DNA from: Chromera velia
Lineage: Eukaryota
Length of the DNA: 57,465 nucleotides
Assembly (NCBI GenBank): GCA_018398765.1
Contig: JAHBMJ010000067.1
Span: forward strand, 1-57,465
Reading direction: 5' to 3'
Position numbers and translations under genes: made by a program
Part shown: piece after piece, positions 19,175 to 49,114 of the stretch
Layout: every line of letters begins with the position of its first letter
How positions within the stretch are numbered: position 1 is the stretch's first letter
The notes under the pieces: model-generated
The model's database searches: none
What the model was told of the DNA's origin: nothing
The model's input: only the letters and a program-made list of their open reading frames with translations

Positions 19175-19185
19175 CTTTCTTTCTT

Positions 19186-19252
<67 letters not shown>

Positions 19253-22589: not shown

Positions 22590-24897
22590 ATCAGATGCAA
22601 CTGACCCGAAACAATGCAATGCTGGGAAGGTTTTGGGATGTTTTCGAATTTCCCGATACATATCGATCGATCTCTGCCTGCCCGCAGGGGAAACGATCGC
22701 CGACATAGATCTGGGCGAGGCCTTCATGTGCGCCACCACCACTGACGGGAAGTTGTACACCGCCGGCATCAATGTCTTCAGCAGCCTCAGTGGAATGTTG
22801 GGTGACGGGACGTCTGTCTCTAAAACTACGTGGACGCAGATTGAGTCCTCGGGAGTGGAGGAGTGCGAAGCTCAGCGGTTCCACACAATCTTCCGCAAGA
22901 CGGACGGGACCGTCTGGGCCTCCGGGTACTCTTCCGGCAACTTCTTTCTGCACGCTCCAGGTTCCAACAGGCTCTCTCCAGAACAACTCCCCGTGACCAA
23001 TGTACAGGCCCTCTCTGACTCCTCAGACAAGACCCAGACGCACTGGTGTGTGCTCACGTCTTCAGGTGTCGTGTGTGGAGGCCAGAATAATTTCAGCCAA
23101 CTGGGCACAGGAGATAACACGGCCGTCACCAGTACGGTAGCGGTGGCGAACACAGTGTCGGGCGTCAGCAGTGGGGGGGGCAGCAGTGGGGGAAGCAGTG
23201 GGGGCAGCAGTAGTGGAGGCAGCAGCAGCAGTGACACTTCCTCTTCCTCTAGCACAAGCAGCAGCACCTCCAGCTCCTCCAGCTCCTCCAGTGTGAGGAC
23301 TAGAGTTCAGCAGGACTTGAAGGTCGACGAGGTGACATCTCCAGGATCCTCCACCCAAAAGAAGGCACGTGAGCGCGAAAGAAACTAGGAAGGGAGGTGC
23401 GGGCGGGGGCGGTGCATGCGGTAGCTACTTTTTCTGTATGAAAAGAATGCCTTTTCTGTATGTAGAATACAGAAAATGCATGAAAGAAAAAGAATTCTGT
23501 ATGAAAGAAAATGCATGCGGTAGCTACTTTTTCTGTATGAAAAGAATGCTTTTTCTGTATGTAGAATACAGAAAATGCATGAAAGAAAAAGAATTCTGTA
23601 TGAAAGAAAATGCATGCGGTAGCTACTTTTTCTGTATGAAAAGAATACTTTTTCTGTATGTAGAATACAGAAAATGCATGAAAGAAAAAGAATTCTGTAT
23701 GAAAGAAAATGCATGCGGTAGCTAGGTGCCTTGACGCGATTTCCCTGCTTCGGCGTCTTCCTGAGACTCTCTTTCACTGCACTTCTGCATACACGCATAC
23801 GCGTGTCTCTGTTTTCAATGTGTGTCTTTCTGAACATGTTCCTCTCTGTATGAATATGTGGCTATCTGTATGAATGTGTGTCTGTATGAATTTGTGTCAG
23901 CCTCTGCAAATGTGTGTCTTGTTTGTATAAACGCGTTTCTGTTTGTATGAATGTGTTTCGTTCCGAATGAATGTGTGTGTTGGTCAGTACACGTATGCAT
24001 GGGTGAGTTTCTTATGGATGCCAAAATGATTCATCGAATCTGTTCGTTTATTCAGGTGACGATTCCCGACAGCGTGAAGACGGAGGCCGCCCAGTTGACC
24101 GACCCGAACGTTAAGCGATCGTTTGTAAAGGAAGTTCTGGGGGCAGTCGTGGATTCCCTGGGGGGATCTGGAACCGGAAGCGATGCCCAGAAGGTGACGG
24201 TCAGTCAGCCAGACAGCCAGTCGGTCGGTAGAGTCAATTATTCACCTAGCTGCTTCCAGTCGAGCTCTTCCTTCCTTCACCTAGCTGCTTCCAGTCTAGG
24301 TTTTTTTCTCTCTTTCTTGATCTGCCGTCTCCCGTCCCAGCTGGTTTTGTTCCTGCCTGCCTGGTTGGAGTGAATGAAGCTCCTGCATTGTGCTTTGAAC
24401 TAGGTTGAATTAAGTAACGGGATACACCCAACCAGTTAATTGGGTGAGTGCCTCAATCGAGGGGCAATTTCGTGTGTGTACGAGTGCGTGCTTGCGTGCA
24501 TGTGTATATGCGTCTGTGTATGATGTGCGTGCGTGCGTGCGTTGTGTGTGTATGTGTGTGTGTATGTGTGTGTGTGCAGGTCTCCACAGCAGATCTACCG
24601 TTTGATGACGAAGTCAAGAACGTCATCTCCTCTGTCGACGTGTACACCAGCGGGTCAACCATCGACGCCACCGAGTACGCGGAAGGGCAAGAGGAAGCCT
24701 CCGAGGACACATCCGCATCCGCAGGCTCAGACGGGTTCTACTGCCTCTTCCTGTCAGTCAGTCAGTCCGTGAGTGAGTGGAATGGAGAGAGAGCGAATGA
24801 AAGTATGAGTGAGAATGAGTACATACACTCGTGCAGAAGCATAGACAGGCACACACGCACAAGCACACACGCACACACACACACATGCACACATATT

Positions 24898-24929
<32 letters not shown>

Positions 24930-26242
24930 CACACGGATGTTCTTCTATGATTCTAATGCTTCTGCTCCGTTGTGCTCTGATTCGAATCAGCTCGGCAAGG
25001 CTAGAACAGAACAGAAACGTACCAAACCGAATTAACTCAGCAATACCTCCCGGAGGCACACTGCTGTAAATTGCAATTAATGCAGTGCTGGCTGGTTGGT
25101 TCTTTGCATGGTCGATCGAGTGCGTGCATGAGTGCAGGAGCCCAGGAGACAAATGCTGTGTGTCTATCGAGGACAAAGTATGCGTGCATTTATTTACATA
25201 CATTTATACATTCATTTATTTCTGCATGTATTGATAAATGAATAAATGCAGGAGCCCTGGAGACAAATGCTCTGTGGCCATCGAGGACAAAGTGTGCGTG
25301 CATTTATTTACATACATTTATACATTCATTTATTTCTGTATGTATTGATAAATGAATAAATGCAGGAGCCCTGGAGACAAATGCTCTGTGGCCATCGAGG
25401 ACAAAGTGTGCGTGCATTTATTTACATACATTTATACATTCATTTATTTCTGTATGTAAATAAATGAGTGCAGGAGCCCAGGGGACAAATGCTCTGTGGC
25501 CATCGAGGACAAAGTGTGCGAGGTGACGATGAATGCCGACAGCTCGTCGTTTGCCGTTGACTTCGACGGCGAGCGTCAGATGGAGGGGGCTGTAGGTGGT
25601 GAGGAGTTTTCGTTCGAGTGGCGGCGCTTCGACGTGACTGTGCGGATCGGCTCGGTGGTTGGTTGGACATCGACGAGGACGACGGACGTTAACGAAGAGT
25701 GGCCTGTGTGGGCCTGGTATGTGATTGCAGGGGGGGGGGCGCTGGTCGCAGCTGGGTTGGCTTTAGGCATTTATTTCTGGGTGAAGAGTTGCCAAAAGAA
25801 GAAAAGGACGGAAGAAAGATACAAGACTGAGGATCTTGAGAACGGCTGCAAGGGAGGAAGCGAGAAGGGGGGATCTCAAAGGAAGTTGATGGTGAACGAA
25901 AAGGGGGTGGAGCAGGCTCCGGTAGTTCCGATGCATGGCAGAGAAGAAGATGAGGAGCCCGTGGTTGAAGCAAATCCCTGGCAAGACCTTGATGACCTCC
26001 AGGATTTGGATGGAGCAGAAGAAGAGGCACAGCATGAGGAGGTGCAGGACAGCGCTTTTGAGAAAGAGCTGGACAGACTGGTTGAGGAGGTCGATCTGGC
26101 TTCCAGAGAGGAGGAGAAGGAGAAGCCACCAATGCTTCCCCACACGCCCGATCCCACACCGACCAAGCGTCACCCGAAGGCTGACACTGCCCCTTCCCTC
26201 CTCGACACCCTCCATGGGGAAGGAATCGACGTCCACGTGTGA
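21047..26242 (+). CDS. RCC1/BLIP-II-repeat type-I membrane protein (hydrophobic N-terminus, beta-propeller repeats, Ser/Gly linker, TM helix, acidic tail)
   Basis: Exons ~21047-21510, 21980-22281, 22688-~23364, 24057-24199, 24580-24752 and 25474-26242. RCC1-type repeats: GEIYSAGYQPNGAQGNG, GKFWGRGNGGSHQFGN, DGKLYTAG...GMLGDGT, CGGQNNFSQLGTGD. TM: WYVIAGGGALVAAGLALGIYFWV followed by KSCQKKKR. TGA at 26240-26242. Confidence 0.8.
23413..23724. repeat. 99-bp tandem array: 15-bp host segment x4 separated by 84-bp CATACAGAA-family filler x3 (intronic)
   Basis: TGCATGCGGTAGCTA at 23413, 23512, 23611 and 23710. The filler is built from TTCTGTATG(AAA) sub-repeats. Confidence 0.9.
25133..25520 (+). 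repeat. Four copies of a splice acceptor plus exon start (52 bp) separated by 56-62 bp AT-rich filler
   Basis: TGCAGGAGCCC..GACAAATGC..ATCGAGGACAAAGT(G/A)TGCG at 25133, 25247, 25361 and 25469. The filler starts TGCATTTATTTACATACA. Confidence 0.9.
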
Positions 26243-26361
26243 GGGAAAGCTCACAGTGGAGGGGGTGTATTTGGCCCATCATCTTAGGCACAAATATGAA
26301 GGGAGGAAATGAAAGAAGACCCCGTGAGTAAGGGCGAGGGGGGCTTTCAGGGTCTGAAGTT

Positions 26362-26668
26362 ATCCCATGAAATTAATTTGATGACCTGTTGGGTAGCAGA
26401 AGTCGATCCCATGAAATTAATTTGATGTCTTGTCGGGTAGCAGAAGCCAATCCCATGAAGTAAATTTGATGTCTTGTCGGGTAGCAGAAGCCAATCCCAT
26501 GAAGTAAATTTGATGTCTTGTCGGGAAGCAGAAGTCGATCCCATGAAATTAATTTGATGTCTTGTCGGGAAGCAGAAGTCGATCCCATGAAATTAATTTG
26601 ATGTCTTGTCGGGAAGCAGAAGTCGATCCCATGAAGTAAATTTGATGTCTTGTCGGGAAGCAGAAGTC
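26362..26668. repeat. 44-bp minisatellite, 7 copies
   Basis: Unit ATCCCATGAA(A/G)T(T/A)AATTTGATGTCTTGTCGGG(T/A)AGCAGAAG(TCG/CCA), with no unique spacers. Confidence 0.9.
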
Positions 26669-26849
26669 CCACGAAGTCTCCTGGGGTGAGAAAGGGGGGA
26701 GGCCATTTCTTTCTGAGGAAATTAACTGCTGAGGTGATCAAAATTTCAATGGTGAGACTTTTAATTCGGGAAAGAGGGTATGCTTTCTTTTAGGAGAGAA
26801 GCTATGCTTTCTTGTAGTCTAAGAAGAAGGACCCGAAGGCATGAAATCT

Positions 26850-27028
26850 TGCAACTGCAGTCTTCGGCAGTTACACTTTCTTACCCAAATGCATGGAAGC
26901 ATGCAACTGTAGTCTTTGGCATTAATATTTTCTTACCCAAATGCATGGAAGCATGCAACTGTAGTCTTTGGTATTAACGTTTTCTTACCCAAATGCATGG
27001 AAGCCTGCAACTGAAGTCTTTGGCAGTC
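26850..27028. repeat. ~52-bp minisatellite, ~3.5 copies
   Basis: Unit TGCAACTGTAGTCTTTGGCATTAATATTTTCTTACCCAAATGCATGGAAGCA. Confidence 0.85.
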
Positions 27029-27289
27029 ATGCACTGTGCCGGCCAGGGAAGGCATGCATGGACTTGGACTCCACCGAAGTGCACAGATGAGGGATCAATC
27101 TTATTTGTGGTGGCAGTTTCCTTGTGCTGTGAGCTGGACCTGACTACGTACTACCCGTGTGCGCTTGGTGGGATGCGCAAAACGCGCATGCTGAGTCACG
27201 CGTGTAAAGCGACAAAAACTTTTAAAGCAGATCAGTGAGCAAAGTCGACAACTTTGGTATCATGCAGTGATCGACCATGCAGCATCAAA

Positions 27290-27470
27290 GAGTGAAATCT
27301 TTTGACTTGAATGTTTGAAACCGGCTGCAAAACGTAGATACCTAGAAATTAAATCTGAAATTTATGTTAAAATAATTTGAATTAAAATTAATTAATATAT
27401 TATCAAATCATGTGTTTCAAATGTACTGTATTATGTTTGTGGCTAGGTTTGTTGATGCAAACAGGAAATA

Positions 27471-27511
<41 letters not shown>

Positions 27512-28170
27512 TATAGAGCCATAGACATTCGACTACTACAGTAAATAAGTTACTAGATAAGTTGCACTGTTGTGTAGACGGATAGAAAATTAAGAGTAAG
27601 ACGGACCTAGAGGCGGACATACTAGAAACGGATCTTAAATGCAGTTTCCTCGAGTTATAGAACAGGTGAAATTAAGATAACCAAACTACCTTAGGTGTTT
27701 CTGCCTAATGCTAAACACCTCAGGCTATTTATGGTCCAATGGTAATAAGATGTGATGATGATCAGATGATGATAATGATAGAATTTATGATAAATTTAAT
27801 GAAAATGTTTCATAAATCCATATAAAAATCACGCCTAGAAACATATTTTAACGGCCGGTAATAGCTAGGGGGCCCGCAATGTAACTAGATTTATTATTTA
27901 ATTTTATCTGATTTAACGTCGTCGACGACTCATCGTTACATCACATTATATCTGTATAAATGATAACATCATGATATCTAGCATGATATGGTGATTATAA
28001 AAAGGCTAACCCCGACGCCGTTTAAGCGCCGACAAGCGGCCGTTGTGTAAGACACCTTCCAAGCAAACTGTGGGTAAGGAAGCTTAGGGTCCACCAAAAC
28101 GTCCATATAAGGGCAGCCAAGTCTAGAGCCAAGTACGGGGCACATGCAAAAGTTAATAGACTCCTAGCTG
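27290..28170. mobile_element. AT-rich, CTAG/TpA-rich decayed repeat or transposon relic
   Basis: Abrupt compositional shift with many CTAG, a weak inverted repeat (~27740-27810 vs ~27880-27950) and no ORF. Confidence 0.35.
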
Positions 28171-28309
28171 CTATGTGGCAGATGATACCAATGCAAGTGC
28201 ATTTAGAAGTGCATGCATTTTACATAATGATCGAACAACACACGGCCCAAGTCAGAATGAAAACATTGAGTCGGATCACTCTTGTCACCTTTGTATGACC
28301 TGTCCGCCC

Positions 28310-28417
28310 TTATCTATGCCCCTGCCTGGCAAGCTGTAAAGCTGACTGCGTTTACTTTCATACAGAAAAAAAAAAAAATTATCTATGCCCCTGCCTGGCA
28401 AGCTGTAAAGCTGACTG
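28310..28417. repeat. 39-bp direct duplication of a CDS 3' end flanking a 30-bp filler
   Basis: TTATCTATGCCCCTGCCTGGCAAGCTGTAAAGCTGACTG at 28310-28348 and 28379-28417, with CGTTTACTTTCATACAG(A)n between them. Confidence 0.9.
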
Positions 28418-29288
28418 TCTGGGCCGTCCCCCCAGAGTCCTATCCAGAAAGGAGCTCGACGACCCGCCGTGCGTCTTTTTCCCCTTCAACTCTCCCTTGC
28501 CTTCGCCCGCTGAACTCCCTCTGGTGTCGCGGAGAGACTGAAAGACGACCTGTTGCCTGCAGACAATCAAACAAAGAAACAAACAAACAAGCAAACAACG
28601 AGAAGAGAGGGCTGATAGAACATGAAGAGGAATGAAAAGAAACCTGCTATTGATGTATGCAGGTAACTCTTGTACCACACAGGCTCCTTCACAGTGTAAA
28701 TATGTGCGCCTCATCGACCTAAACAGTTGTAGGTGCATGCACGCACGCACGCACGCACGCACGCAGTGAATCTGCCCCCCTCTTCCGTTCCTTCCACGCC
28801 CGTGCATGGCGCTGCTCTTTCTGCTTGTTCATCATGCGATGTATCGAATCTGCGTGGTTCACATATTGGCATGCAGCATCGGAAGGCATCCGATTTTTTT
28901 TTTTACACTTGATTCTTCTGATTCTCTCCTGCTTGCAATCTCTCCCTCTCTCTCCCTCTCCCATGTTCACTTTCTCACTGACAGCCAGCCAACATCTCAC
29001 TCACATCACCGGCCACCTGGTGCAACTGAACAAAGTGTCCTCCTACTCTTTCCTTTCACCCTCCCCCCCATCTCTGAGCCCCCAGCCCTCACCGAGGCAC
29101 CGATCGATCCCTCCCTCCCTCCCCCCCCCTGACTTTTTGGATGTCTGGACACGATCTTTGTAAGCTTTGAGAACGTCTTTCTGCTTTGAGACCCTCTCTT
29201 CGAGTGTCCGCATGATCTGCCGGTTCTTTGGATCTGCACACACCCACACACACACACACACACACACACATGCACCGACACACACATG

Positions 29289-29319
<31 letters not shown>

Positions 29320-29415
29320 ATACACACACATACACACACACACACACATACATACATAGACACAGACATACACACACACACACATACACACACANNNNNN
29401 NNNNNNNNNNNNNAC

Positions 29416-29447
<32 letters not shown>

Positions 29448-30467
29448 AGAGAGAGAGAGAGAGAGAGAGAGAGGCAAAGAAAGAGACAGAGACAGAGACA
29501 GAAATAGAGAAACGACAGAAAGAGAGCGGACATACCACGCAAATGTGGATGCGGCTAGACCCGAAGTGAATTGCGAAGCAGCGGCAACCAGACGATCAAA
29601 CGAACAAACGAACGAACGAACGAACAATGAAACAAACAGTCAAAAGTGGGACGAGTACCTCACTTGCGTACACACACGAATGCGCTCACCAGCACACGTG
29701 CATATACGAAGCAGCGCAGATGGGTGCATGGGCAAAATGCGCAGTCTTCCTCACTCCCTTTCCTTGCAGTGAAGGGCTCAAGGGAACAGATCATTGGGAC
29801 AGCACGCAAGGGGCAGGNNNNNNNNNNNNNNNGGGGGGGGGGGGGGGGGGGGTTGCACCGAACGAAGAACGATAGAGAGGTGGATTTAAAAACAGGCATG
29901 CTTTCACACCCAGACCAGCTATTTCTACCGACAGGTTCGTTTCATGCGGTCCCTTTTTTGCATGTGCATTCAGACATACACGCTGCATAGAATGGAGGAA
30001 GTGGATAGTCTTGAGTGAAAAAAACTCTTGGACGGAACTCAGGAGAGGAGCGCGCCTGAGAGCCAGAAAGCAAAAGGCGAGACCAATCTCGAAAGAAAAA
30101 AAATGCTTGCACCCACGGCATCGCTTGCCTCACCGTGCCAGAGGCGTTCGTGCGTTACGTCTCCGACTCGGACTTGCGGGTCTCCTTCACCTTCTCCTGG
30201 TTTCTCGGTGTCCTTCTTTGCACTCTTTTTCTGTGCGCTGCTCTCCTTCCCCTCTGGGAGTGTATCAATGGGGCGGTTCTGGAAGAATTGAAGGCCTACC
30301 GGCTGGATCTTTGGGATTGTGGGTGCATCCTTAGCTTGCTGAGCTTTCGGAAGTTTCTGCTTTGGCTTCTTTACCGCTTTCGTCTTCGCTTTCTCACCGC
30401 CGTTCTTCTTCGCCTCCTGTCCCTTCCCCATGCCCTTCTGCACCTCTGTTCCGGCTCTCTTCGGCAT
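28379..30467 (-). CDS. Small Lys-rich basic hypothetical protein, 3 coding exons
   Basis: MPKRAGTEVQKGMGKG...THERLWH|DPKNRQIMRTLEERVSKQKDVLKAYKDRVQTSKK|QQVVFQSLRD...QSALQLARQGHR* with phase-consistent GT-AG introns. TAA at 28381-28379. Confidence 0.65.
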
Positions 30468-30754
30468 TCTGCTCTGCAGCAGTCAGAGACAACACACAGC
30501 GGTTCAGTCTAGGGTCAGTGGAGCACAATCCCGTCAGCCAACCGAGAGTGTATCTATGCCCAGCGCGTCGGTCTGTCTCCGGAGCAGCGGAAATCTGTTC
30601 CAGGAAGTAGTTTTTCCAGCAAATAAAGGGGGGGAAGAGAGTTCGACGCCGACAGTGACAGGACGTTCACGCCTCTGGCTACAAGATCGAGAACACCAGT
30701 GTCATTTAGTCCGTCTACATCAAAATTAAGGTCAGACGAATTTCGTAACGGCTC

Positions 30755-30880
30755 GATCGCGGGTATGTAAAAAAGATCTGACGCACGCGAGGCCCGTCCA
30801 CGAAATCGCGGCTGTCGTGCGTGCATATAGGCATCCGCCGCCCATGCAGGCCTGCCGGGTCCTGCGCCTGTGCATGTACG
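30755..30880. promoter_or_regulatory. GC-rich island upstream of the Lys-rich gene
   Basis: CpG-rich segment with gcatgc-like motifs, resembling 3515-3615 and 20570-20725. Confidence 0.35.
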
Positions 30881-30911
30881 TAGGCTGTAACGTAGCTCCT
30901 GCAGTCCAGAG

Positions 30912-31438
30912 TACCCCCCTATCACTATCGACTGAAACTTCTTAGGAGATTCAAGTTCAGCCTAAGTTCTACGTTTTTCACCTATAAAGTTTAAGTCTAT
31001 TCCGAAGTTCTGCGCTATGTCAATCTTTACTAGTGTTCAATACCACAGTGTAACCACACATTGTCTTACATGAAATTTGACAGTCAGTCTTTCTCCTGCG
31101 CGGAGCTTCCACGTGCTGTCTTGATGCAGTGACGTACTGGTCAAACGCAACTGTCCTTTTTACTTTGGTAACGGCCAAAGATCCCTCTGTCCACCTCTGT
31201 CGTCATCAGCTTTTGTACTTTCAACTCTCTCTTAGTTTCTTCTTCTGTGAGCTAGGCTATCTAAACCTCCTTCTTCAAACACTCGCTTTCTCTTTGTACT
31301 AACTTCTGTCCTACACCCCTCCGAAGTTTTGCACCCTTTATCTCAAAGCACACTCCGAACTTCTGCAACAAATTAAGTTTAAGACTATTCCGAACTTCTG
31401 CAGTCTCAGTTCAAGGAGTCAATAGTGACAGGGGGGTA
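30912..31438. mobile_element. Non-autonomous DNA transposon (MITE), 527 bp, 22-bp TIRs, 8-bp TSD
   Basis: Left TIR TACCCCCCTATCACTATCGACT (30912-30933); right TIR reverse complement TACCCCCCTGTCACTATTGACT (31417-31438). TSD GTCCAGAG at 30904-30911 and 31439-31446. Subterminal CCGAA(G/C)TT(C/T)TGC repeats. Confidence 0.9.
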
Positions 31439-33364: not shown

Positions 33365-33410
<46 letters not shown>

Positions 33411-35366: not shown

Positions 35367-35398
<32 letters not shown>

Positions 35399-38157
35399 AG
35401 CAATGGCACAGGACACCCACATGCAATCATGCACGCCGGAAACAAAAAGATGAGCGAAAAGAAGGTCATCACTTTGTTTGTCACAGAGGGACGAACAGAG
35501 GGTCCCCTCGCCACTTTGTTTGAAGAACCAGACCATGCATGTGAAACAAACAAATCGGGACCGATGAGCAGAAGGAAAAGGGCGAAAATCAATCACCAAA
35601 ATAACCAGAACGACCAGAAGCAAAAGAAGCAAGAGGCAAAACGACCCACCCACTGACTGACCTGCCATCAGACCCCCCGCCCCCTCCTCCTTCGCGATCC
35701 GAAACAGCATCCGAAAGAAACTCTGCAGGCAGGACAGGGCGATGGGGGGAAGCTAGGAATGTTCGATATCCGCGCATGGTCACATCATTATACGAAACAT
35801 TTGTGTGCTGTGCAGGATGTGAAAACTTTGGCACTCGCAGCATGAAAAGGTTTTCTTCCAAACAAAAACTGATCCTGCCCAAACAAACAAAAACTGCATC
35901 ATGCCTTCGGGAAATCACAATCGTGGAAGGAAGGAAGGAAGGAAGGAAGGAAGCAAGGAAGGAAGGAAGGAAGCAAGGAAGGAAGCAAGGATCAGAGGCA
36001 GACAAGGAGATACGAGGAGAAGAGAGGAGAGGAGAAGGGGAGGAAAGGAGAAGAGAGGAGAGGAGAAGAGAAGAGGCGAGGAGAAAGAGACAGGGAAAAC
36101 AACCATGAATGCAATCACTACTCATTGGAGAAGAAGAAGAAGAAGAAGCAGAAGCAACAGCAGCAGCAGCAGAAGAAGAAGAAGAAGAAGAAGAAGCAGA
36201 AGCAGAAGCAGAAGCAGAAGAAGCAGAAGAAGCAGAAGCAGAAGAAGCAGACGCAGAAGCAGAAGCACAAGCAGAAGCAGAAGAAGCAGAAGCAGAAGAA
36301 GCAGAAGCACAAGCAGAAGCACAAGCAGAAGAAGCAGAAGAAGCAGCAGCAGAAGAAGAAGCAGCAGCAGCAGCAGAAGAAGAAGAAGAAGAAGCAGAAG
36401 CAGAAGCAGCAGAAGCAGAAGCAGCAGAAGAAGAAGCAGCAGAAGAAGAAGCAGAAGAAGAAGAAGCAGAAAAAGGAAAAAGAAGCAGAAGAAGAAGCAG
36501 CAGAAAAAGAAGCAGAAGAAGAAGAAGAAGAAGAAGAAGAAAAGAAAGCACTAACCCGATCTTCAGGGTCATCCTGACGCAACTTCAGCCGCGTGTTCAC
36601 GACCCACACTGGAGTCAAGCATGCATGCATGCATGCAGGCAGACAGGCAGGACGAATGAAAGAATGAATGCGCACAAAGAGAGAGGAAGACAAATACGCA
36701 CCAAAAAAAGGACACGACGACCGTTGAAAACTGGACCGTCAGTAAACACACAGACACAGACACACACACAGACGACAAGTTGCCGCACGCGCATAATCCG
36801 AACAACAGCTCGGCGAACAAAGCAGCTCGGAGCTCTCCTCTCACCCCAAAGGCAGCAAAGGAAGGTTTCCAGCCATCTGGTCACATAGCTCTTCCTGAAC
36901 AGAAATGAGAAAAAGGCACTAGCGAAAGAGACCCGCCCACCTACCCGGGTTTGTGACTACAGCCGAAATAACACCAGCGCCCAATGCCGTCACTAGGTTG
37001 ATCAGACTGCTTCTCTCTCGAGGGTATCTGCAGGCAGACAGACAGACAGGCAGACAGGCAGGGGCTATGATAGAAGTTGTGTTACGGAATATCCGGAGGC
37101 TGGAAGTAACTCTCCATGCATGCTTCCTCCTGCACTATCGAGATCCTTGTTCATTTAGGGCTTTCCCCGTCCCCGCAATGTTCTGTGTCTGAACGCAGTG
37201 TGTGCGTCAGCTTTCACCTCTCTCACTGCTGTCGTTTTCTTTTAGTCTCTCTCCCCCTCCATCCATTCGTCCTTCTGTGAGTGTGTGAACGAAAGAGAGA
37301 GAGGGGGGGAAAAAAGAAAGAAAGGAAGAAAACAAGAAAGGAAGCAGGGACGAAACGGGTTCATGCACTGATTCACTCGTTCTCTTCCCTCTTGCCTCTT
37401 CGCGTCGTCTCAAGGGATTGCAATTCCTCCCGTCCTCTCGTCTTGTGCTCCAATTCCTCCCTTCATTTTTCTTGTTTTTCACCTCATGCAGTGAACTCCC
37501 CCCCCCCCCCNCCCCCCCTCTGTGGGCTCGAACTCCGCCCATCCCGGGCGACCAGGAGAGAGTGAGCAAGGAGACAGTAATGCGCACGAACCTTTTTGCC
37601 AAATAGTCCTTGAACAGCGCATAGAAGTAATAGTACACGGCCCAAGACGACCCCACCCCTATTAGAGCACTCCTCAGGCCTGCATACAGCCCCTTAACTC
37701 CCTCTTTGTGAAGGATCTCCTCCAACAAGGCCAAAATCCCTCTGTTGTCCCTCTTCGTTGACACCTGTAACCGCGTCCTCAAATTGTCCAGAGGATAAAT
37801 CACGGCCATTGCAAGCAACGCACCTGCACAAGGAAACGTAAGGTTATGTTGTTTGTACATACCTGCTCATGTACGCACACGGATGTACAAACATCCGAAT
37901 ATTTGTCAAGAGGCTTCAGAGATCGTAGTCATCAACTGGGCCAACTCACCCGTTGCCCCAGCAATGGAGTGAGTGAAGGGAGTGTGAGAGGGTCGGTACG
38001 CATGATACTGTGCCGCCGTCTCTGCCGCTACCCCTGTTGTCCCCGTCCCTGGCGCCCTGACAGTGCCACCCTCCGTCCCCTGTGCCTTCACCAGGTCCCC
38101 AAACTTTGCGCCATTGAGCGAGACAGTCGAGGGAAGCCTCGTGGATGCAGAGGCCAT
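32564..38157 (-). CDS. Mitochondrial carrier family (SLC25) protein, peroxisomal PMP34/SLC25A17/PXN-like, 10 exons
   Basis: Three carrier signatures (YPLDNLRTRLQ, TNPVWVVNTRLK, TYPYQVVKSRLQ), plus EGVKGLYAG, GVLPSLILVSNPTIQFAVYEKLK and EGPAGLFRG. ATG at 38157, TGA at 32566-32564. Confidence 0.9.
36128..36545. repeat. Compound (GAA/GCA)n trinucleotide tract inside a carrier-gene intron
   Basis: ~420 bp of GAA/GCA/CAA triplets between the exons ending DDPEDR and starting SFFRMLF. Confidence 0.9.
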
Positions 38158-38876: not shown

Positions 38877-39597
38877 ATGGTGTTGATTGGGGGGCTGACG
38901 CTGACCCCGGAGGGCCGCACGGACGCCTCTTTGAAAGCCGAGGTCTCCATTGAGAGAAAAACTGCCATCGTCAGAAGGTCGGCTCTACTCAGCGTGGTGT
39001 TGTATTCGCGCTCCTTGTCTACATGGAGTGCATGCATGTGGGTTTCACGCTGAGTGTTGCTTTGGTGTTGCTCTGCAGAATTATTTCGGAAGAAATCGAG
39101 ATATGCAGCAAGGTATGTCAGTGTGTCCTGTCCATCTATCACAATTGTATCCCTGCATTCGGTATAGAGATCGGTGGTGACTCATCCGCGGTCTCCTGAT
39201 CCTATTGCTTTCATGCGGGAGTGCACTGCTTCTCCTTCCCTTGACAAATGGGGAAAATGTGTGTGTGTGTGTGTGTGTGTGTGCGGGGGGGGNNNNNNNN
39301 NNNNNNNNNNNNNNNNNNNNNNNNNNNNNNNNNNNNNNNNNNNNNNNNNNNNNNNNNNNNNNNNNNNNNNNNNNNNNNNNNNNNNNNNNNNNNNNNNNNN
39401 NNNNNNNNNNNNNNNNNNNNNNNNNNNNNNNNNNNNNNNNNNNNNNNNNNNNNNNNNNNNNNNNNNNNNNNNNNNNNNNNNNNNNNNNNNNNNNNNNNNN
39501 NNNNNNNNNNNNNNNNNNNNNNNNNNNNNNNNNNNNNNNNNNNNNNNNNNNNNNNNNNNNNNNNNNNNNNNNNNNNNAGGCGGGCGAGGGAGACACG

Positions 39598-39637
<40 letters not shown>

Positions 39638-40366
39638 ACGCGGTCGTTTCAAAGTTTTGAAATTGATGTCTGTCATATATAGATACATTTCTCTGTGCAT
39701 GCACGGCAATCACCTGTGCATCCGCTTTCTTTCGAACGCTGTGTTGTGTTGCGTGTATGCACACCCTGTGCATGCAGTTTCCTCCCGAAGAGGAGCTCTC
39801 AAGGGCGGAGAAGGTTCCCGTGCGGCTGCGAAAGTGGAGACTTGAGAAGGTCCGATGCATGGATGGAGGGATGCATAGATGTATAGAGGGACGGAGGGAA
39901 GGAGGGAGTGATGGAGGGAGGGTGGGGGCCTTTCATCAGAGAGGAGAGGAGGAGCACTCCACCGGCATCCAGTTGAATGCCACTCATCGCAACTCAGTTA
40001 GAGAGGGAAGAGGGGGGACAAGGAGGTGGCATATTCTGTAAGGTGAAGCAGGCCCTTTCTCTCAGTTTGTTGGGCAAGTTCGCAGAACAAAACCCTCGGG
40101 CCCAGACCCGTCAGAGAATGCAGCCTGCCTGGCCGAACATTGGAGGAGGAAGCGAGAATGTCAATAAGCAGAGAAAGAGATGCGCTGTTCCGAAAACAAA
40201 CAGTTTCATGATTTTTAGCAGGCAAACCGAATGCCTTCTGACGGGCACAGTTTCGTTTGACGGTCCATTTTGGTTTTGCCCCTCTGAGCACATTCACAGC
40301 TCGAGAAGAGCGCGGTGGCTGCTGACAGACAGAATGTATTTTCCCTTGTCTTTCAGTCAGTCAGAA

Positions 40367-40397
<31 letters not shown>

Positions 40398-40861
40398 TGA
40401 AATTAGTGCATCTGTACGTGGGATTCCCTTTCCATCTCATTGGCAAGGCAGCTTTGTCGATCTGTCTCTCTTGTACTCTCGCCGATTGCTAACCAGCATG
40501 ATGAATTCCGCCTGACTGACTGGTGAATGAGTCTCTCTCTCTCTGTGCAGCTCGAGCAAGCCGTTGACAACATCTTCAGATCGGACAGCTGCACACAGGC
40601 CGCACGCAATAGAATCATCAAGGATGTCCGTCAGCTAGTCAGGTGTTCGGATCGGAGGGACTGCATGCATTCTGCGGTTTTCAGGAACTGTCCTTCCTTC
40701 CATTTGTGTATGAATATGCATGCCCCTTTCCTTCCATTCTGTTTGATTGCTTCTTGCCTCAGAGAGGCAATCGAGTGGTTGCATGGGTCGTCCTTTCGTT
40801 CGTCTAGTTATCTCACACGGAGAGAGCAACCAGAAGGCTCCCTGTACCTTTCTCGCTCTCT

Positions 40862-40899
<38 letters not shown>

Positions 40900-41242
40900 T
40901 CTCTATGTGTCTATGTGTCTATGTGTCTGTCTGTGTGAGTGCGTGTGTTTGTGTGTGCGTGTGTGTCTAGCCGTCCATCCGCCTGCCTGCCTGACTGCCT
41001 GACTGACTGACTGATTTCCACCAGGCCATTAAATTGAATCCATGCAGGCGAATGCCGCCCGTCAGAGAGACGAGACGAAGATGAGGCAAATCGGAGAGAG
41101 ACTGGCCGCGCTGGACACAGCCAATGAGAAGAAGACGGAGACCCTCAAGGACGAAATCAGAGGAAAGCTCCAGCAGGGAAGGGACAAGCTGTACAATCTC
41201 AAAATGGAGGTAGGTAGGTAGGTAGGTAGGGAGGGAGGTAGG

Positions 41243-41305
<63 letters not shown>

Positions 41306-41711
41306 GTGTATTAGCGAGATTGATTCTACTGTTTTAAAAGAATTTGCGTGTATGCGGGCAACGACACTGATATGTACATTTCACATGTCCGTACATGTGT
41401 GTGCGGTTTATATCCATAGATTCCAAAACTAAGCGATGCAATGGTGATCGATCGAATGAGCCGAATGAATGCATGCATGCAGGCAAAGGCGAAGGGAGCA
41501 GCTCTGTCAAAGCACTTGAAGGAAACGAAGGAAAAGAGACAAGAGAGGGAGCGAGACCGCATCAGGGCAGTCAGGGAGACCCTCACAGACGAAAAAGTGT
41601 TTGAGCAGGCGCTGGAGAGGAAGAGAGAACACATGGAGACGGTTGGTCACCCTTCACTTCTCTTTTAAACTTCATGTCCTGCGTTGGCATACGTAGGTAT
41701 GCGTGTGTGTA

Positions 41712-41750
<39 letters not shown>

Positions 41751-43673
41751 ACAAAAAGCGAGTTTCCGTTTGCATGATCGATTTTGCGAAACGCGCTGGA
41801 GAGACTGGAGATCACTTCCAAGTTGTCATGAGCATTTTCATGAACCATGGATCTTAAGCATGCATTTCAGTGGATCGTCGGTCAAGTTTCTCTTTCAGTG
41901 AGACGCATTCTCCCCGGATGCAGGTTTGAATGAGGATCCTAAGCTCATGCTATTGTTTCAATAGCGGGAATCTTAGTATCATCATGCAGACATGCCCTCT
42001 TGATTAATTCAACGACCAATCACTCAACGAATGCATGTTGATCTTTCGAACTTCGATCAGATGGGGACGGGTGTTCGTACAGACTTGGAAGTGCATGAAG
42101 GGAACATCTACATACAGACTCCAAAAGAGTTGAAATACATGCAAAAAGAATGGAAGTCCATGCAAAAAGTCCACTTGAAGGAGGTACATGCTTGTTTGTG
42201 ACTTCGCTTCATCTGTTCATTTATTCATTCATTCATTCATTCATTCATTCATTCGATCATCAGACTGTCTTCGGCCCCCTCCGGGAAGAATTCAAGCGTC
42301 AGGAACAGGCAGCGATGAGAAACAACCAACAGGACGACTCATTCGACAAGGAGAGGACGGTCAGTCGATCGTGTTCGTTCATTCATTCATTCATTCATTC
42401 ATTGTTGCAATCACTGCTAGAAAAATATCCCCCTGCGGGTCGATGTGCACGTTGGTAGAATGAGTGCGTCGAATGGAGAGAAAGCCCGCCGACTACAAAG
42501 AGAAGGGACAGAAAACTAGTGGACAGAAGCACAAAGAAAAGATTTGTGGCGTCCTCCACCCCCCCTGCGCCAACACTCACATGCATGCATTGATGTGATG
42601 AATTCTGAGGGATGGGTAGCTTCCGATCTCATGCTTTTGTCGACTCATTCACTGGTTGCTTCTTCTCTCATCTTATGTCATCTCCTCTCTGCATGCCCCT
42701 CCGTCTCCCTCCTCCCTCTCCGTATGAACGACCAAACAACGAGCGCAGAAACGAATGGAGGAAGAACTCAGACGAACGGCCGCAATCGCCAAAATGCAGG
42801 CGGACCGATTCAAGGTCAGAGAAGGACAGGCATGTACACACACACACACACACACACAGAGGTCTTTTGATGGTCATTTGTGCATATCGCCTGTTATCTT
42901 GGTTTGTCATCTTTTTCCTCTCCCTGTGGAAGCCTTACAGGCTCACACGCGCTCCTGAGAGGAATGTGCGCGGTTAGGTTCCTGCATCCATGGGAGCTTC
43001 ATGAACAAGTGGAAGGAAGTGGGGCGTGAAACTTAAAAAGCACATACGTTCATGTGTCTGCATGTATCCCTTCATGTATGTATGTATATGTCCGTATGTA
43101 TGTGCATGAATGAATGAATGCAGTACGGACCCACCGCCCCACCTCAGAGGACGCTCCCCCGACAACCGCGGGCGGAAGATCAGTCGGTGAGTCAGTTCTT
43201 TCGACCGTGCACGGCCACATACGACGATGCTTATGCATGACTTCATTCATACGTGCATGTACGCAGTCGCCGGCCAATCCTGCAGGGATACGCACAAGAC
43301 GTACAACATCCCAAGTGCCTGCCCCTGCCATCTTTGCCTGCCCCTCGGCCTGCCTGCCTCCCGGCTTGTATGCATGCATGTTTCGATGCGTTTCCATTCG
43401 TCTACGTTTCGTTGCGTTGCATGCCTGCGTTTGGTGTTTGGCTGCTTTTTGCACAGGTTGAATGCTTGCTGCACTGATAGAGCGTCTGTACAAGTACGTA
43501 TATGTGTCCTTGTTCTGCTGTGGATGTAATGTTTTTGTACAATGAGACGATTTTGAATTAATTAATCGTGTATGTACAAGTGTGCACTCACCCTCCCTCC
43601 TTCCTTCCGTCTTTCCTTCCTTCCATCGTTTCTGCAGGGAGACGACGAGGGAGGAAGAGAAGCCAGCGCGTGA
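38877..43673 (+). CDS. Coiled-coil hypothetical protein, ~10 exons
   Basis: Phase-consistent exons MVLIGGLTLTPEG...IVRR|IISEEIEICSK|FPPEEELSRAEK|LEQAVDNIF...RIIKD|ANAARQRDE...NLKME|AKAKG...EHMET|TVFGPLREEF...KERT|KRMEEELRR...DRFK. The last exon and stop are uncertain (43673 or ~43828), and one intron spans an N gap. Confidence 0.65.
39293..39577. other. Assembly gap (N run); smaller gaps at ~29395-29413 and ~29818-29832
   Basis: Runs of n in the sequence. Confidence 0.99.
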
Positions 43674-45105
43674 AACAAACAGAAAGAAGGCGCAGGGAGG
43701 GAGGGAGGAAGTGAGAGGCGCAGAGAGGCGCAGGGAGGGATCAATTGCAGAAGGAATCATCAGAAAACAAAAGAGAATCAAGTGGAGGGGAGGGGAGGGT
43801 TATTTGGAGAAGGAGAAAGGAAACTGAGGGCCTGAATGAGAAAGAGAGAATGCATTGTGTGCACAGACAGGGAAGGAAGGTACAGGACGGAAAGAGAAAA
43901 AGAAAGAAAGAAAGAAAGAATGAATGAATGGATGCATGGATGAAAATCTTTGCATGATTGTATGACAACATTCACGCGTGAGGATGCAAGAATCTTTGCA
44001 AATGTGCTTGGAAGGCATATTGATTTGAGGAATTGACCCTCTTGAATAGAGCACAGAAGGAAATTAAAGGAAAGGATGGCCTGGAAAGTACGAGGAGGGA
44101 GAAGGTCATCTGCCCTCGATCATTAGTTCCGCTTCTGTCCTTTGACGGTCTCTTGTTTCTCGCTCGTCTGTTTTCATTCTTCCCTTTTCTCTGTTTCACT
44201 TTCGTCCTCTCCCTGCAGTGAGTAATGGATAATTAATTCGGCTGAACCAGAATCTTGCAAGGATCGAGATTCGCGACGGTTGTTTGGTAGCAGAGAGAGT
44301 CGATCGAATGGACGACAAGGGTGAATGAATGGGTCATAGAAGAAGAAGAAGAAGAGAAGAATAAGAGAAGGTGACGAAGGGGGATCGAGGAAGGCAAACG
44401 GTCAATGAAAGAAGATCAAACTTCAAACGCACACACGCTGCATGGGAGAGAAACAAATGCATCGGACAGAGACAGACACACAGTCAGTCAGGGGCACTGC
44501 ATGCAGACGGACCGAGGTGGAATCGAAAAGTTTAGGGGAAACAGAAAGTGGGCTGGAGTGCATAGAGAGAGAGAGCTCTGGCGTCATCGCTGCATGGGCC
44601 CTCCAATCTGCAGCTTCAATGAGTTGCATTGCATGTTAAGAATCCTGAGCTCTCGATCCGTGCATTTGTTTTTATTTCACCTTCAAGTTGGGAATGCAAC
44701 TGTTTGGACGACTAATGGTGCACATGTACAAAGAAACGTAAACAAAGGCGATGACTTCATGAAGCAGTGTAGCTGGTAAACACCCCATCCATATGTTCAA
44801 CTTGCAGCTAGTTTTATAAATGAAACATTGTATGCAACATGCCGCAGGGATGCTGTGTCATTATAGTAATGATTGATGTTTAAAAAATAATTGGGAAGTG
44901 TGATCAATGCATGGTTACATGCTACTGCCTGTGAACAAATCATGTTATTATTTTTCGTAATCTACTTCCCAACCATAGTTTTTTGACTATGACAAAGCGA
45001 GCAATGGTCCGACGCATGTATGCGTTTTTCCTGCACGCCGTACGTCGAACGCTCGGCATTAAGGCAGGAGACCAATCCTCCAGACCTTAATCCTATTCTA
45101 TCCCA

Positions 45106-45458
45106 TCCTATAATAATAAAGCTAGTAAGTTGAATCTTAATGACAGTTTAATCTAAGGTTTAATATGACATAAATTTAAGAACTTAACTTTTGAAGCTTT
45201 TTAGACTTGAGCTTTACACCTCATATTTTCTAGTTAATTAATCATCTAGCTGGTCGTCTAGCTACCATTTTTTATGACTAAATTTAGATTTAACTTTAGG
45301 ATATGCTACAGATTTTTTAGTTTTTGTAGGTGTTTAACTCTCTTATCTAGTCCTGTATTTACGCAGATTTTGTTTAGTATATACTAGAAGCTTAATTCTA
45401 GGCAACATTTAAGTTTCCTAATGCCTCATAGTATCTGGCATAAGTCAGTTTAAGCTAG
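45106..45458 (+). mobile_element. Possible non-autonomous Helitron-like element
   Basis: AT-rich block inserted as A|TCCTATAATAATAAAG ... CTAG|T, with a short ATGCC...GGCAT stem ~13 nt before the terminal CTAG. Confidence 0.35.
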
Positions 45459-45830
45459 TGTTTAAGACGGATTCTCATCTACTGCAAAGCTCGTATTTCA
45501 CTGACTATATTTCATGGTCTGAAGGCTGAAGCTTCCCTCAATGCTTTTTTGAGGTTTCTCTCATTTTCAGATATTCTTGCTACAGTTTTCAGGTAACAAA
45601 TCTTTTTTTTTTTTTGCTGTGTCATCCCGACTGTTTTTGTCGTTTTCGTTAACTCCTTACTTCGTTGACTTCGTTCCGGTGGAGGATTTTTTCTTTCTTC
45701 TCCGACTCTCTCTCTCTTTCTCTCTCTCCCTTCCTCTCTCTTTGTCTCTTAACTTGAGCGGCAGAGCTAGTGATAGAGTCGACAGCGCACGAAGATGACG
45801 AAAGCTTTCCATCGCAGATGGTTTGTGCAG

Positions 45831-47745
45831 CTAGTAGTACGCTCCCAGTGTTTTCTCTGTGAATTCCCCAAAGTCCATTCCCTCCTTCCATCTCGACAAA
45901 AGAGCAGGAACCCCAGGGGGCAGCAGCTCGCCGTTGGCCCCTCTCTTCAATTCAGTGTCGTCGATTCCTCTTGGGGCGGCCACAAGGTGGGCCCACTCAG
46001 GTTCCATGAAAACCGCCAGCGTGCTCCTGGAGACTCCCTTCTTTGAGGGCGGACGCACGCAGTGGGGAGTCGCTTGGAGAATCCCCCCTGTCATCAACTG
46101 CATTCATTCATTCAATCGTTCGATCAATCATTCGTTCGTTCGTTCATGCGCCCATGCAGACAAACAAATCCAGCATAGAATCTACACACACACACACACA
46201 CACACACACGCACGCACACGCACACGCGCGCGTGTGCGTCGGACAGCGAGAGAGAAACAGAGAGAGCACACAGCCGGGAGGGAACGCAGGGAGACAGACA
46301 GAGAGAAACAGACAGACGTATCGACGAACACACAGACAGAGGAAGACAGAGAAAGACAGCCGAAAAAGAAGAGTGAGCCCGAGTCAATACTTTCACGTGA
46401 TCACTGGGTTCACACGTTGATCCTCTGCTACGAGAAAAAGAAGACAAAAAGAGAAAAAAAGAAAGCGTATTGGACTCCAAACAAGTAATACACAGACAGA
46501 AAGACACACAGACGAACAGACAGACAGAAAGACAGACAGACAGACCTGCTCAGCCTCCCCAATCTGGAACGCCAGACATCCCGGAGGAGTCACCACCCTC
46601 ACGACCTCTCCTGTCCGGGACTTCACATACAGTCCTGCCTTCGCATCGGGACACTCGACTTCCTCCCCCTTCTCGTTGAAGAACATTCCTGCAGGCAAGA
46701 ATGCATGAGCTAGATCGCATTCTTGCAGAAAAACAAACAAGACCATCATCCACATTCAGAACAGGACGTGCGCGTAAACACAAACAAAAAAGAAAACACA
46801 CAGAGAGAAGCGGCACTAGAAAAAGATCTGAGGGAGATCACCCTGTTCCTGCCTCACACGCTTCCTTCACGTACGTGCATCTGATGTGAACCACACTTGA
46901 TGCAAGTGAGATCGAATGCACATGCCATGTTTGCAAATGTGCATGGTGAAGGGAAACGCGTCACAGACACAGAGAGATGGAGAGACCGGAGAAAGGTGGG
47001 GGCGGAGAGAAAGAGAAAGAGGCAGGGAAGGAAGGGGAGAGTGGGAGAGACAGACCAACCGACCGACCGACCAGGGGCCAGTCCCGTCAGAGATCCATGG
47101 TCGTTGTGCCACCCGCACCATCCTGATATGTCGTCTTTCTTCTCTTTCTCTTCCTCTCCCTCGTCATCCTCTTCGTCAGTATCCCTCGGAAAGTAGTAGA
47201 GCAGTCTCGCTTTATGACACCTGCATTTCGTCACCACATCCACAAGACTCACGTCCTTTCTGGCCGCGTCTCCACCTCTCTTAACCAATTGGGTTGAGAC
47301 ATACGCGTCGCAGTGTCTTGCCAGGAACTCTCCTGTCTTGACAATTAAGCCTCCGAGTCTCTTGAACGCTTTCTCGAACCCCGGGCAGTCCTCTTCTGAG
47401 GGCCAGATGTTCGGGTGGGCAAAAGAGGAGTGATCCCTTATGATTTTCTCGTCTTCATACTGCACCATGCACGCATGCATGCAGTCACGTGTGCGGACAT
47501 TTACGCAAGCGCGCGCAATTATCTGGGCACCGCAGGGCGCGTTCATGCTTTGCTTCTAAGTTTGCCGCCGAGAGGCAGGCAGAGAAACGAGACGAGACAA
47601 CAGAAGCAACTTTAAGGAAGGTGGAACAAAAGTGGCTGGAATGCAAACATCCTCCGAGCTCCAAACACAAGCTATAAAGAAAACGAAGCCCAAGTCGCCC
47701 AGGCGGGGAAGGAAATTGGAGAGTGAGAGAGTGAGAGAGAGTAAG

Positions 47746-47776
<31 letters not shown>

Positions 47777-49114
47777 AGCAAGCAAGCAAGGAAACAGCCA
47801 AAGAAAACGTCCAAACGAAACGAAAACGAAGAAGGAAAAAAGAAAAGAAGGAGAACATGACGGACGGGTCTGTCCAGCACAGGATTTGCATAGTAGCTTC
47901 CCTTCTTCAAATCTGGTTTTCCCTGCATTCATTCATTTATTTATTTTTTCTCATCTTTTACTCATTCATTCGCGGCGGAGGTACAATCGTGAGGAAGAAA
48001 TACAGCTTCATGCAAGACAGCAACATATGCCCATATGCAACGCATTCAGTCCCCTACTATCCTGTCCCGTGCTTCTTCATGAATGAACAAAAGAGAAACA
48101 GAAAGCGAAGAAAACGAAAGCAAGAGGAGAGGGGGCGCACGAAGCACGGAGAGTCTCTGTGACCCTTCGTCTGATCGCTTTCCTTCATCTTACTCGCGGC
48201 GCTAGCCCACGTGCCCACCTCCAATTTCTCTTTCCCATGGGACCACCCGAAGGAGAAGTACTTGCTTTCTGTATGGAAAAGAATTCTGTATGAAAGTAAA
48301 TGCACGTGCCCACCTCCAATTTCTCTTTCCCATGGGACCACCCGAAGGAGAAGTACTTACTTTCTGTATGGAAAAGAATTCTGTATGAAAGTAAATGCAC
48401 GTGCCCACCTCCAATTTCTCTTTCCCATGGGACCACCCGAAGGAGAAGAAGGATTCGGAGTGAACGTACTTCTCCTTCACGGCCTCGGGGAGGGAGGCAA
48501 ATTTGAAGGCAAGGGGCAGACACTCCTTCCGGGCATCCAGAAGATCCGGAACCCCGCGAACTGCCAGAATCCCCAGACCCCCAAACGAGTAGGCCTGCAG
48601 GCGAGGTTGTGACATGATGGGGGAGATAGGGAAGAAACGGAAACCGGGAGGTAGGAGGGGAGTGAAATAGTTGGCGAAAGATTAGGGAAGCCCGCATCCT
48701 TGCACGGTCTCTGTCAGGAACACATGAAAATACGGATAGCAGGGGTGCACTTTGGACAGTGGAGGCGGGTGGACAAAATAAAGGGAGGGCCAAGAGGACA
48801 ATGGTTGATTGGAGACGGCTGAGGGGGTATGGAGACGGATCTTGCAAAGCATCAACGATGTTGTATGGAAAGAATAAGAAGGAAGCCAATTGAAGGGAAC
48901 CCTACTAGGGTGAGCGTGGAGCCGATACTGGAAGAGAGGGAGGTACAGAGAGTGGACAAAGATTCTTTTGCCCACCGAAGCACATCGATCATGATGCACA
49001 CCGAACTCCACGAACCCTTTCGATCTTCTGTCTCAGATCTTCAGAAGTCTCCGCACTCAGAAGCTCCTCGTAGTTCAGCACCACAAGCTCACGACCTTCA
49101 ACGTCGGCAGACAT
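45831..49114 (-). CDS. 2-oxoglutarate/Fe(II)-dependent oxygenase (isopenicillin N synthase-like fold), 6 exons
   Basis: MSADVEGRELVVLNYEELL...|AYSFGGLGILAVRGVP...FGWSHGKEKLE|GKPDLKKGSYYANP...|...PNIWP...KARLLYYFP...WCGWHNDHGSLTGL|...FQIGE|...LQATPHCVR...VSRSTLAVFMEP...TLGAYY*. The HxD...H iron triad and the distal Arg are present. Confidence 0.9.
48208..48448 (-). repeat. Three copies of an exon end plus donor site (51 bp) separated by 44-bp CATACAGAA-family filler
   Basis: Period 95 bp, copies at 48208, 48303 and 48398. Minus-strand filler CATTTACTTTCATACAGAATTCTTTTCCATACAGAAAG(T/C)AAGTA. Confidence 0.9.

What the first reader, a model, noticed from the sequence alone, without database searches (positions are those of the whole stretch)
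23413..48448. The same short filler, (TG)CATTTACTTTCATACAGAA, separates tandem duplications of host sequence at four unrelated loci
Seen: four loci have the layout X-filler-X(-filler-X), where X is locus-specific host DNA: 23413-23724 (X=15 bp, 4 copies), 25133-25520 (X=52 bp, 4 copies), 28310-28417 (X=39 bp, 2 copies) and 48208-48448 (X=51 bp, 3 copies). Read on the appropriate strand, each filler starts the same way: TG|CATTTTCTTTCATACAGAATTCTTTT, GCG|TGCATTTATTTACATACA, TG|CGTTTACTTTCATACAGAAAA and TG|CATTTACTTTCATACAGAATTCTTTT. The far end varies (30-84 bp) and is mostly imperfect re-copies of the same TTTCATACAGAA core, or poly-A. Both orientations occur relative to the host gene. Established: variable-length target duplications with one fixed element end are typical of target-primed reverse transcription, and reiterative copying of a short template is typical of telomerase-like activity or template jumping. 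Inference: a polymerase or RT primes at TG(CA) target ends on a constant ~20-nt template (3' end ...UUCUGUAUGAAAGUAAAUGCA), copies it one to several times at staggered nicks, and leaves long duplications that later expand into arrays. I do not recognise this as a described element.
Basis: partly seen in the sequence, partly recalled or inferred. Interest (0 to 1): 0.9.

Follow-up and report, generated by a model that had tools for sequence, protein, structure and literature searches.

The report
Tiny insertion stubs duplicating algal DNA
In the alga Chromera velia, a roughly 20-base sequence sits between 15-52-base duplications of host DNA at four places here and recurs at dozens of other places in the genome; it is likely the stub left by a retrotransposon-type copying enzyme, but no parent element was found.

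Summary
The four X-filler-X arrays are real, with the stated coordinates, lengths and copy numbers. The host is Chromera velia (exon 100% identical to a UniRef protein). The ~20-nt core (TGCRTTTACTTTCATACAGAA) is a dispersed family: about 80 contigs in each of two DNA runs leave the window exactly at its fixed end, and two further loci show filler-X-filler. The core is not copied from the flanks and is not the telomere repeat (TTTAGGG, PMC3622300). Beyond the core, fillers A and B are self-copies, direct and fold-back, or oligo-A in C. Some copies carry the core at both ends, inverted. RNA contigs show arrays B and D spliced out and C near a transcript's poly(A) end. Best reading (0.55): abortive target-primed reverse-transcription stubs of a LINE- or Penelope-type machinery, closed by end-joining and then expanded in tandem. 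No longer parent showed at either end in the rows displayed, so a dedicated short template remains possible (0.15). Polarity is unresolved; the genome-wide duplication test could not be run. New variant of a known kind; interest 0.55.

The parts
23413..23724 (-). Array A: X (15 bp) at 23413, 23512, 23611, 23710; three 84-nt fillers, core reads on the minus strand; distal filler is direct and fold-back self-copies; predicted to lie about 40 nt inside an intron of an RCC1-repeat gene
   Evidence: intron position inferred, no RNA laid
25133..25520 (.). Array B: X (52 bp) at 25133, 25247, 25361, 25469; fillers 62, 62, 56 nt with the core variant at both ends in inverted orientation
24753..25473 (+). 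GT..AG intron that contains the first three B units; the last X copy supplies the acceptor
   Evidence: one X3 contig joins at 25474 with a loose end equal to window 24723-24752
28310..28417 (+). Array C: X (39 bp) at 28310 and 28379; 30-nt filler = TGCG variant of the core plus an A-run; lies in the last exon of a minus-strand transcript whose poly(A) joins at 28176
48208..48448 (-). Array D: X (51 bp) at 48208, 48303, 48398; two 44-nt fillers = core plus a second sub-repeat
47923..48408 (-). GT..AG intron of the dioxygenase gene holding all of D beyond the first 40 nt of X; the first X copy supplies the donor
   Evidence: joint skipping 486 nt in one contig each of X3 and X7; exon map
45834..49114 (-). 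Host gene, non-haem dioxygenase (P0002, 379 aa), which identifies the organism

Best explanation
The fillers are a dispersed family of 17-45-nt insertions with one fixed end, each between long duplications of its target, and are likely abortive target-primed reverse-transcription stubs made by a LINE- or Penelope-type enzyme. Inferred steps: (1) the target is nicked so that a strand ends in TG or TGCA; (2) this end pairs with the template end and is extended by only about 17-45 nt; (3) a second nick 12-52 bp away sets the duplication length; (4) the new end is closed by end-joining with untemplated A's or self-templated direct and snap-back copies (polymerase-theta-like), or by a second priming event that leaves the core inverted at the other end; (5) the X-filler unit then expands in tandem; (6) near genes, copies survive when the duplication rebuilds the splice site or the stop. 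Shown: the anatomy, the dispersal, the self-copying, and the splicing of B and D. Inferred: the RT, the RNA template, the polarity and the repair polymerase.
For: Fixed end: 38+42 contigs in X1 and 39+37 in X2 stop matching exactly at 48304/48399 and run into unrelated flanks that share only a TGCA start; 13 and 16 more stop at the TGCG variant seen in C. Variable duplications: 15, 39, 51, 52 bp here; at other loci 12 letters (table 5c) and 39 letters (table 5c) lie between two fillers. Each X ends in TG, TGCA or TGCG at the fixed end. The core is absent from the flanks (8 or more mismatches within 500 bp on all 8 sides). Self-copy share is 54 of 84 nt in A and 38 of 56 and 40 of 62 in B, against null means 14.5, 11.2 and 14.2 (0, 1 and 0 of 500 shuffles as high). 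Inverted double ends: B; X7 record 28; 11 contigs per DNA run whose flank ends like the inverted core. Variable duplications, heavy 5' truncation, partial tandems and inverted partners are described for Penelope-like elements (PMC8557442; median Chlamys insert 128 bp, PMC9977147). Untemplated addition and template jumping are described for the R2 RT (PMC8857657 abstract). C. velia has 5.2 Mb of LINE and 13.8 Mb of unclassified repeats (PMC4501334 supplement 11).
Against: No parent: loose ends beyond the variable end have agreement 0.45-0.50 (n = 7, 8, 11) against 0.46, 0.44, 0.41 expected for unrelated sequences, whereas a repeat that does continue gave 0.71-0.95. A truncated LINE population should include longer copies; however 180 and 30 loose-end rows were not shown and contigs collapse repeats. 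No RT, endonuclease or transposase domain in the 94 frames scanned (16; 78 of 610). The published TE table has no Penelope row. Duplications are longer than the usual 7-18 bp of L1/RTE (PMC6007223) and the 8-10 bp of rotifer Penelope (PMC3846280). C and D show no self-copy excess (198 and 105 of 500 shuffles as high). No empty allele was seen.
Confidence: 0.55

Rival explanations
1. A dedicated short template (about 20-50 nt RNA) with a telomerase-like or reiterative RT adds the core to TG-ending staggered breaks; no long element exists.
For: All 4 window inserts are under 90 nt, with at most about 45 nt of shared sequence. No shared continuation at either end in the rows shown. Head-to-tail re-initiations at other loci (two joints going back 15-16 nt with one letter between, table 5c).
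Against: No template RNA was found (Rfam: 0 at gathering threshold, only weak chance-level hits). C. velia telomerase makes TTTAGGG. Re-copies in A and B carry locus-specific variants, so they came from the new strand. Longer parents may be hidden in rows not shown.
Confidence: 0.15
2. Same chemistry, opposite polarity: the core is the fixed 5' end (or a fixed truncation point) of a short poly(A) or internally primed RNA, as in processed or tailless retropseudogenes, and the TGCA junction is second-strand microhomology.
For: C and at least one other locus read core + A-run + duplication, the textbook retrocopy layout. Tailless retropseudogenes have a constant 5' end, 2-18 nt of target complementarity and were screened with 8-35 nt duplications (PMC5322556 passages).
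Against: The duplications do not start with A-runs after the tail (they start TT, TC, TA, CT). Target specificity sits at the fixed end and the messy self-copies at the other end. No source RNA family was found.
Confidence: 0.13
3. A DNA element: either a ~48-nt mini inverted-repeat element or a HUH (Replitron/Helitron-like) element transposing from one end.
For: Some copies have the core inverted at both ends (B). Replitron-1 has one fixed end after a dinucleotide target, a fuzzy other end and variable duplications (PMC10288648 section 9).
Against: Cut-and-paste transposases give fixed short duplications (recalled, established knowledge), not 12-52 bp. Replitrons have terminal direct repeats, are 0.9-3.6 kb, take their fuzzy end from the parent's flank, and were not detected in TSAR clades other than stramenopiles. 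B's two arms share B-specific changes, which fits snap-back copying.
Confidence: 0.1
4. Ordinary break-repair filler copied from nearby DNA, chance similarity in an AT-rich microsatellite genome, or an assembly artefact.
For: The distal parts of A and B do fit synthesis-dependent end joining (PMC2943611, PMC4912351 abstracts). One nearby intron has a 12-of-13 match to part of the core (2% of null).
Against: The core is not in the flanks, is shared by about 80 contigs per run with an exact end, and C is bridged by RNA-type contigs of two runs, one of which differs from the window at 13 other sites.
Confidence: 0.04

Closest known systems
Penelope-like elements (Naiad/Chlamys; Adineta Penelope) and their 5'-truncated or non-autonomous copies
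   Same: Fixed end, heavy truncation, partial tandems, inverted partner copy, variable target duplication, bias for simple-sequence targets (PMC8557442, PMC9977147, PMC3846280 passages).
   Different: Units here are 17-48 nt rather than ~200-bp pLTRs or a 128-bp median; duplications are 12-52 bp rather than 8-10; no RT/GIY-YIG ORF found; not reported from Chromera in the paper read (0 mentions).
5'-truncated non-LTR retrotransposons with long duplications (Dualen, R9, RTE)
   Same: Variable and sometimes long duplications; 3'-end microhomology with the target; untemplated additions.
   Different: No graded longer copies seen; the RTE signature (T stretch about 10 nt upstream, PMC6007223) is absent at A, C and D by inspection; clade cannot be assigned.
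Tailless and processed retropseudogenes
   Same: Very short insert, one constant end, target complementarity, duplications up to about 35 nt.
   Different: No known source RNA; self-copied and inverted ends; frequent tandem expansion.
[quoted passage not shown]
   Same: Direct and snap-back self-copies at the variable end.
   Different: The first ~20 nt come from a shared external template, not from the flanks.
Replitron-1 of Chlamydomonas
   Same: Fixed end after a dinucleotide, fuzzy far end, variable duplication.
   Different: No terminal direct repeats, far smaller, fuzzy end is self-copied, no Rep known in alveolates.

Membership tests
Non-LTR retrotransposon (truncated LINE/SINE copy) | Variable-length target duplication | tested here: met
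   15, 39, 51, 52 bp in the window; 12 and 39 letters between fillers at two other loci
Non-LTR retrotransposon (truncated LINE/SINE copy) | One fixed end with target microhomology | tested here: met
   76-80 contigs per DNA run break at the same base, flank consensus TGCA
Non-LTR retrotransposon (truncated LINE/SINE copy) | Longer copies continuing into a shared element body | tested here: inconclusive
   No shared continuation in the rows shown; 180 rows hidden and repeats collapse in contigs
Non-LTR retrotransposon (truncated LINE/SINE copy) | RT plus APE or RLE endonuclease ORF in a parent | not testable with these tools
   No genome held; none in 94 window frames
SINE | tRNA, 5S or 7SL-derived head | tested here: not met
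   No tRNA and no Rfam match; inserts are too short
Penelope-like element | RT with GIY-YIG endonuclease | not testable with these tools
   No parent located
Penelope-like element | Tandem and inverted truncated copies at one site | tested here: met
   B; X7 record 28; 11 contigs per DNA run
Penelope-like element | pLTR of about 200 bp | tested here: not met
   Shared sequence is at most about 48 nt against 181-218 bp in PMC3846280
Interstitial telomeric insertion | Insert is the organism's telomere repeat | tested here: not met
   C. velia telomerase makes TTTAGGG (PMC3622300)
Polymerase-theta templated insertion | Insert is copied from the flanks or the new strand | tested here: not met
   Not met for the core (8 or more mismatches in flanks); met only for the distal part of A and B
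MITE / cut-and-paste DNA transposon | Fixed short target duplication | tested here: not met
   Lengths 12-52 bp
Replitron | Short terminal direct repeats and a Rep transposase | tested here: not met
   No terminal direct repeats in A-D; Rep not testable

The most novel reading that the evidence does not exclude
Chromera velia has an RT or polymerase that writes a fixed ~20-45-nt sequence from a dedicated short template onto TG-ending staggered breaks throughout the genome: a non-telomeric, telomerase-like stamp or the smallest retroposon known, which seeds minisatellites and duplicates splice sites.
Probability: 0.18. Interest if true: 0.85.

Novelty: new variant of a known kind. Interest (0 to 1): 0.55.

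Why it matters
If these are retrotransposon stubs, they show an insertion route that almost never copies more than the element's last 20-45 bases yet makes 12-52-bp duplications which grow into minisatellites. Standard repeat annotation would likely miss such elements. Because the duplications rebuild splice sites (shown for B and D), the family is a ready test of whether duplication-with-filler events reshape or create introns in the closest photosynthetic relative of apicomplexans. If no parent exists, it points to an undescribed short-template polymerase activity.

Tried and rejected
No whole genome is held, so the genome-wide duplication test was not run. Pattern scans: viral contigs 0; metagenomes 0 for a 24-mer and 1 for the 21-mer (L001 shows no flanking duplication by eye, taken as chance); prokaryote genomes 0. 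Translated arrays as bait for other loci: 0 of 325 candidates; 1 hit, an unrelated repeat protein. Rfam and ARAGORN: nothing credible. Pfam on 94 frames: host domains only. The neighbouring 44-bp and 52-bp arrays, the 24241 duplication and the repeats at 27560 and 49450 match the core no better than chance (null fractions 0.32, 0.21, 0.99, 0.22, 0.61) and are left out. No RNA holder is listed as such: X3-X8 are guessed RNA; I use them only for splice joints and one poly(A) junction. Summed contig depths (8217 against about 15 at D; 820 against 10-19 at C) show repetition but are not copy numbers. X1 and X2 are near-identical to the window and may be its source, so they give no independent support for array structure. 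Earlier scan findings: none. Literature searches listed no description of this family; Repbase and Dfam could not be searched, and 4 of the 16 supplements of PMC4501334 were not searched.
Full report
Observation. All four arrays are in the sequence as described: A, X 15 bp x4 with 84-nt fillers; B, X 52 bp x4 with 62, 62 and 56-nt fillers; C, X 39 bp x2 with a 30-nt filler; D, X 51 bp x3 with 44-nt fillers. The 12-mer TTTCATACAGAA occurs 9 times, all in A, C and D, against 0.0-0.05 in simulated windows. Outside the arrays the 21-nt core has no match closer than 6 mismatches. Background recurrence of a 15-mer within 165 nt is 37 of 2205 positions, so 4 of 4 is not chance. Units inside an array differ by point changes.

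Host. An exon next to D is 100% identical to a 379-aa dioxygenase labelled Chromera velia by UniRef.

The core is a dispersed family. On 47800-49700, 442 contigs of X1 and 444 of X2 were laid; 261 and 266 fit two places of the stretch, and summed depth peaks over the D fillers (depth is not copy number, and part of the laid contigs belong to another repeat near 49500). At the fixed end 38+42 (X1) and 39+37 (X2) contigs stop at the same base and continue into flanks whose consensus begins TGCA and is otherwise unrelated; 13 and 16 more stop four bases earlier with the TGCG variant that C carries. Several contigs match the D filler over 34-43 nt, so the two-subunit form recurs. Two other loci show filler-X-filler, with 12 letters and 39 letters between. 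The C form with an A-run is also repeated, while B's variant is not (depth 26-29 against 14-18).

No parent in view. Beyond the variable end, loose-end agreement is 0.45 (n=7), 0.49 (n=8) and 0.50 (n=11). Unrelated sequences give 0.46, 0.44 and 0.41; the excess for n=11 is a short inverted copy of the core end. A different repeat that does continue gave 0.71-0.95. The limits are that 180 and 30 rows were not shown and that contigs collapse repeats. Pfam found no RT, endonuclease or transposase in 94 frames (16; 78 of 610).

Anatomy of the fillers. The core is not in the flanks (8 or more mismatches within 500 bp). After it, A and B are mostly copies of what was just written: 54 of 84, 38 of 56 and 40 of 62 nt, far above shuffles; C and D show no such excess. 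A and B fold back strongly (z -4.8, -5.3, -3.9), D weakly (-2.4), C not at all. B's two arms share B-specific changes, which fits snap-back copying. These are the direct and inverted templated additions described for polymerase theta and synthesis-dependent end joining (PMC4912351 and PMC2943611, abstracts only). That this enzyme acts here is inference.

Effect on genes. One contig each of X3 and X7 skips 486 nt with GT..AG ends, removing D beyond the donor supplied by the first X. One X3 contig joins 24752 to 25474, so B lies in an intron and its last X supplies the acceptor. C lies in the last exon of a minus-strand transcript with poly(A) at 28176; in one open frame the first X ends on a TAA, so the filler would fall in the 3' UTR (inferred). 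A is predicted to be about 40 nt inside an intron. All four are at or near exon edges; four cases are too few to tell targeting from survival. X3 differs from the window at 13 sites in this stretch yet carries C with a shorter A-run, so C is older than that divergence (inferred). These runs are guessed to be RNA. No empty site was seen.

Mechanism. A fixed end with target microhomology, variable duplications, strong truncation, tandem and inverted partners are the marks of target-primed reverse transcription. They are described for Penelope-like elements (PMC8557442: passages and section 9; PMC3846280: passages; PMC9977147: passages, which also reports long LINE duplications). Untemplated addition and template jumping are known for the R2 RT (PMC8857657, abstract). 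C. velia has LINEs and much unclassified repeat, with no Penelope row in its table (PMC4501334: passages; supplement 11 whole). I give 0.55 to stubs primed at the TG end, 0.13 to the opposite polarity (PMC5322556 passages), 0.15 to a dedicated short template, 0.10 to a DNA element (PMC10288648: passages and section 9 part 1 of 2) and 0.04 to local filler or artefact. Canonical telomerase healing is excluded because the repeat is TTTAGGG (PMC3622300 passages). Typical LINE duplications are shorter, 7-18 bp (PMC6007223 passages).

Novelty. It works like a truncated TPRT insertion, but membership of any family is unproven because the defining ORF could not be sought and the size features of SINEs and pLTRs are not met. 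Ten literature searches (listings seen) showed no description of this family; repeat databases were not searchable. What is unusual is the tiny size, the long duplications, the frequent tandem expansion and the missing parent. Verdict: new variant of a known kind, interest 0.55; 0.85 if the short-template reading (about 0.18) holds.

Noticed in passing
window 26362-26668 and 26831-27025: 44-bp x7 and 52-bp x3.8 tandem arrays covered by RNA-type contigs downstream of a stop; one X3 contig has one 52-bp unit fewer. No significant match to the core.
   Followed up: partly
window 27570-27649: A second dispersed repeat: contigs continue leftwards with 0.71-0.95 agreement and share a fixed right end followed by CCC and A-rich sequence.
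   Followed up: no
window 49450-49570: A third dispersed short repeat just upstream of the dioxygenase gene, with variable middles between shared ends.
   Followed up: no
window 23800-23980: Intron sequence next to array A with three TCTGTATGAA copies; 12-of-13 match to part of the core (2% of null windows). Possibly a decayed relative.
   Followed up: partly
window 36129-36546: Long AGAAG(A/C)-type repeat that reads as an E/A-rich or K/Q-rich frame.
   Followed up: no
window 18447-19272: About 825 bp of (TCTT)n-type microsatellite between frames that read like kinase exons.
   Followed up: no
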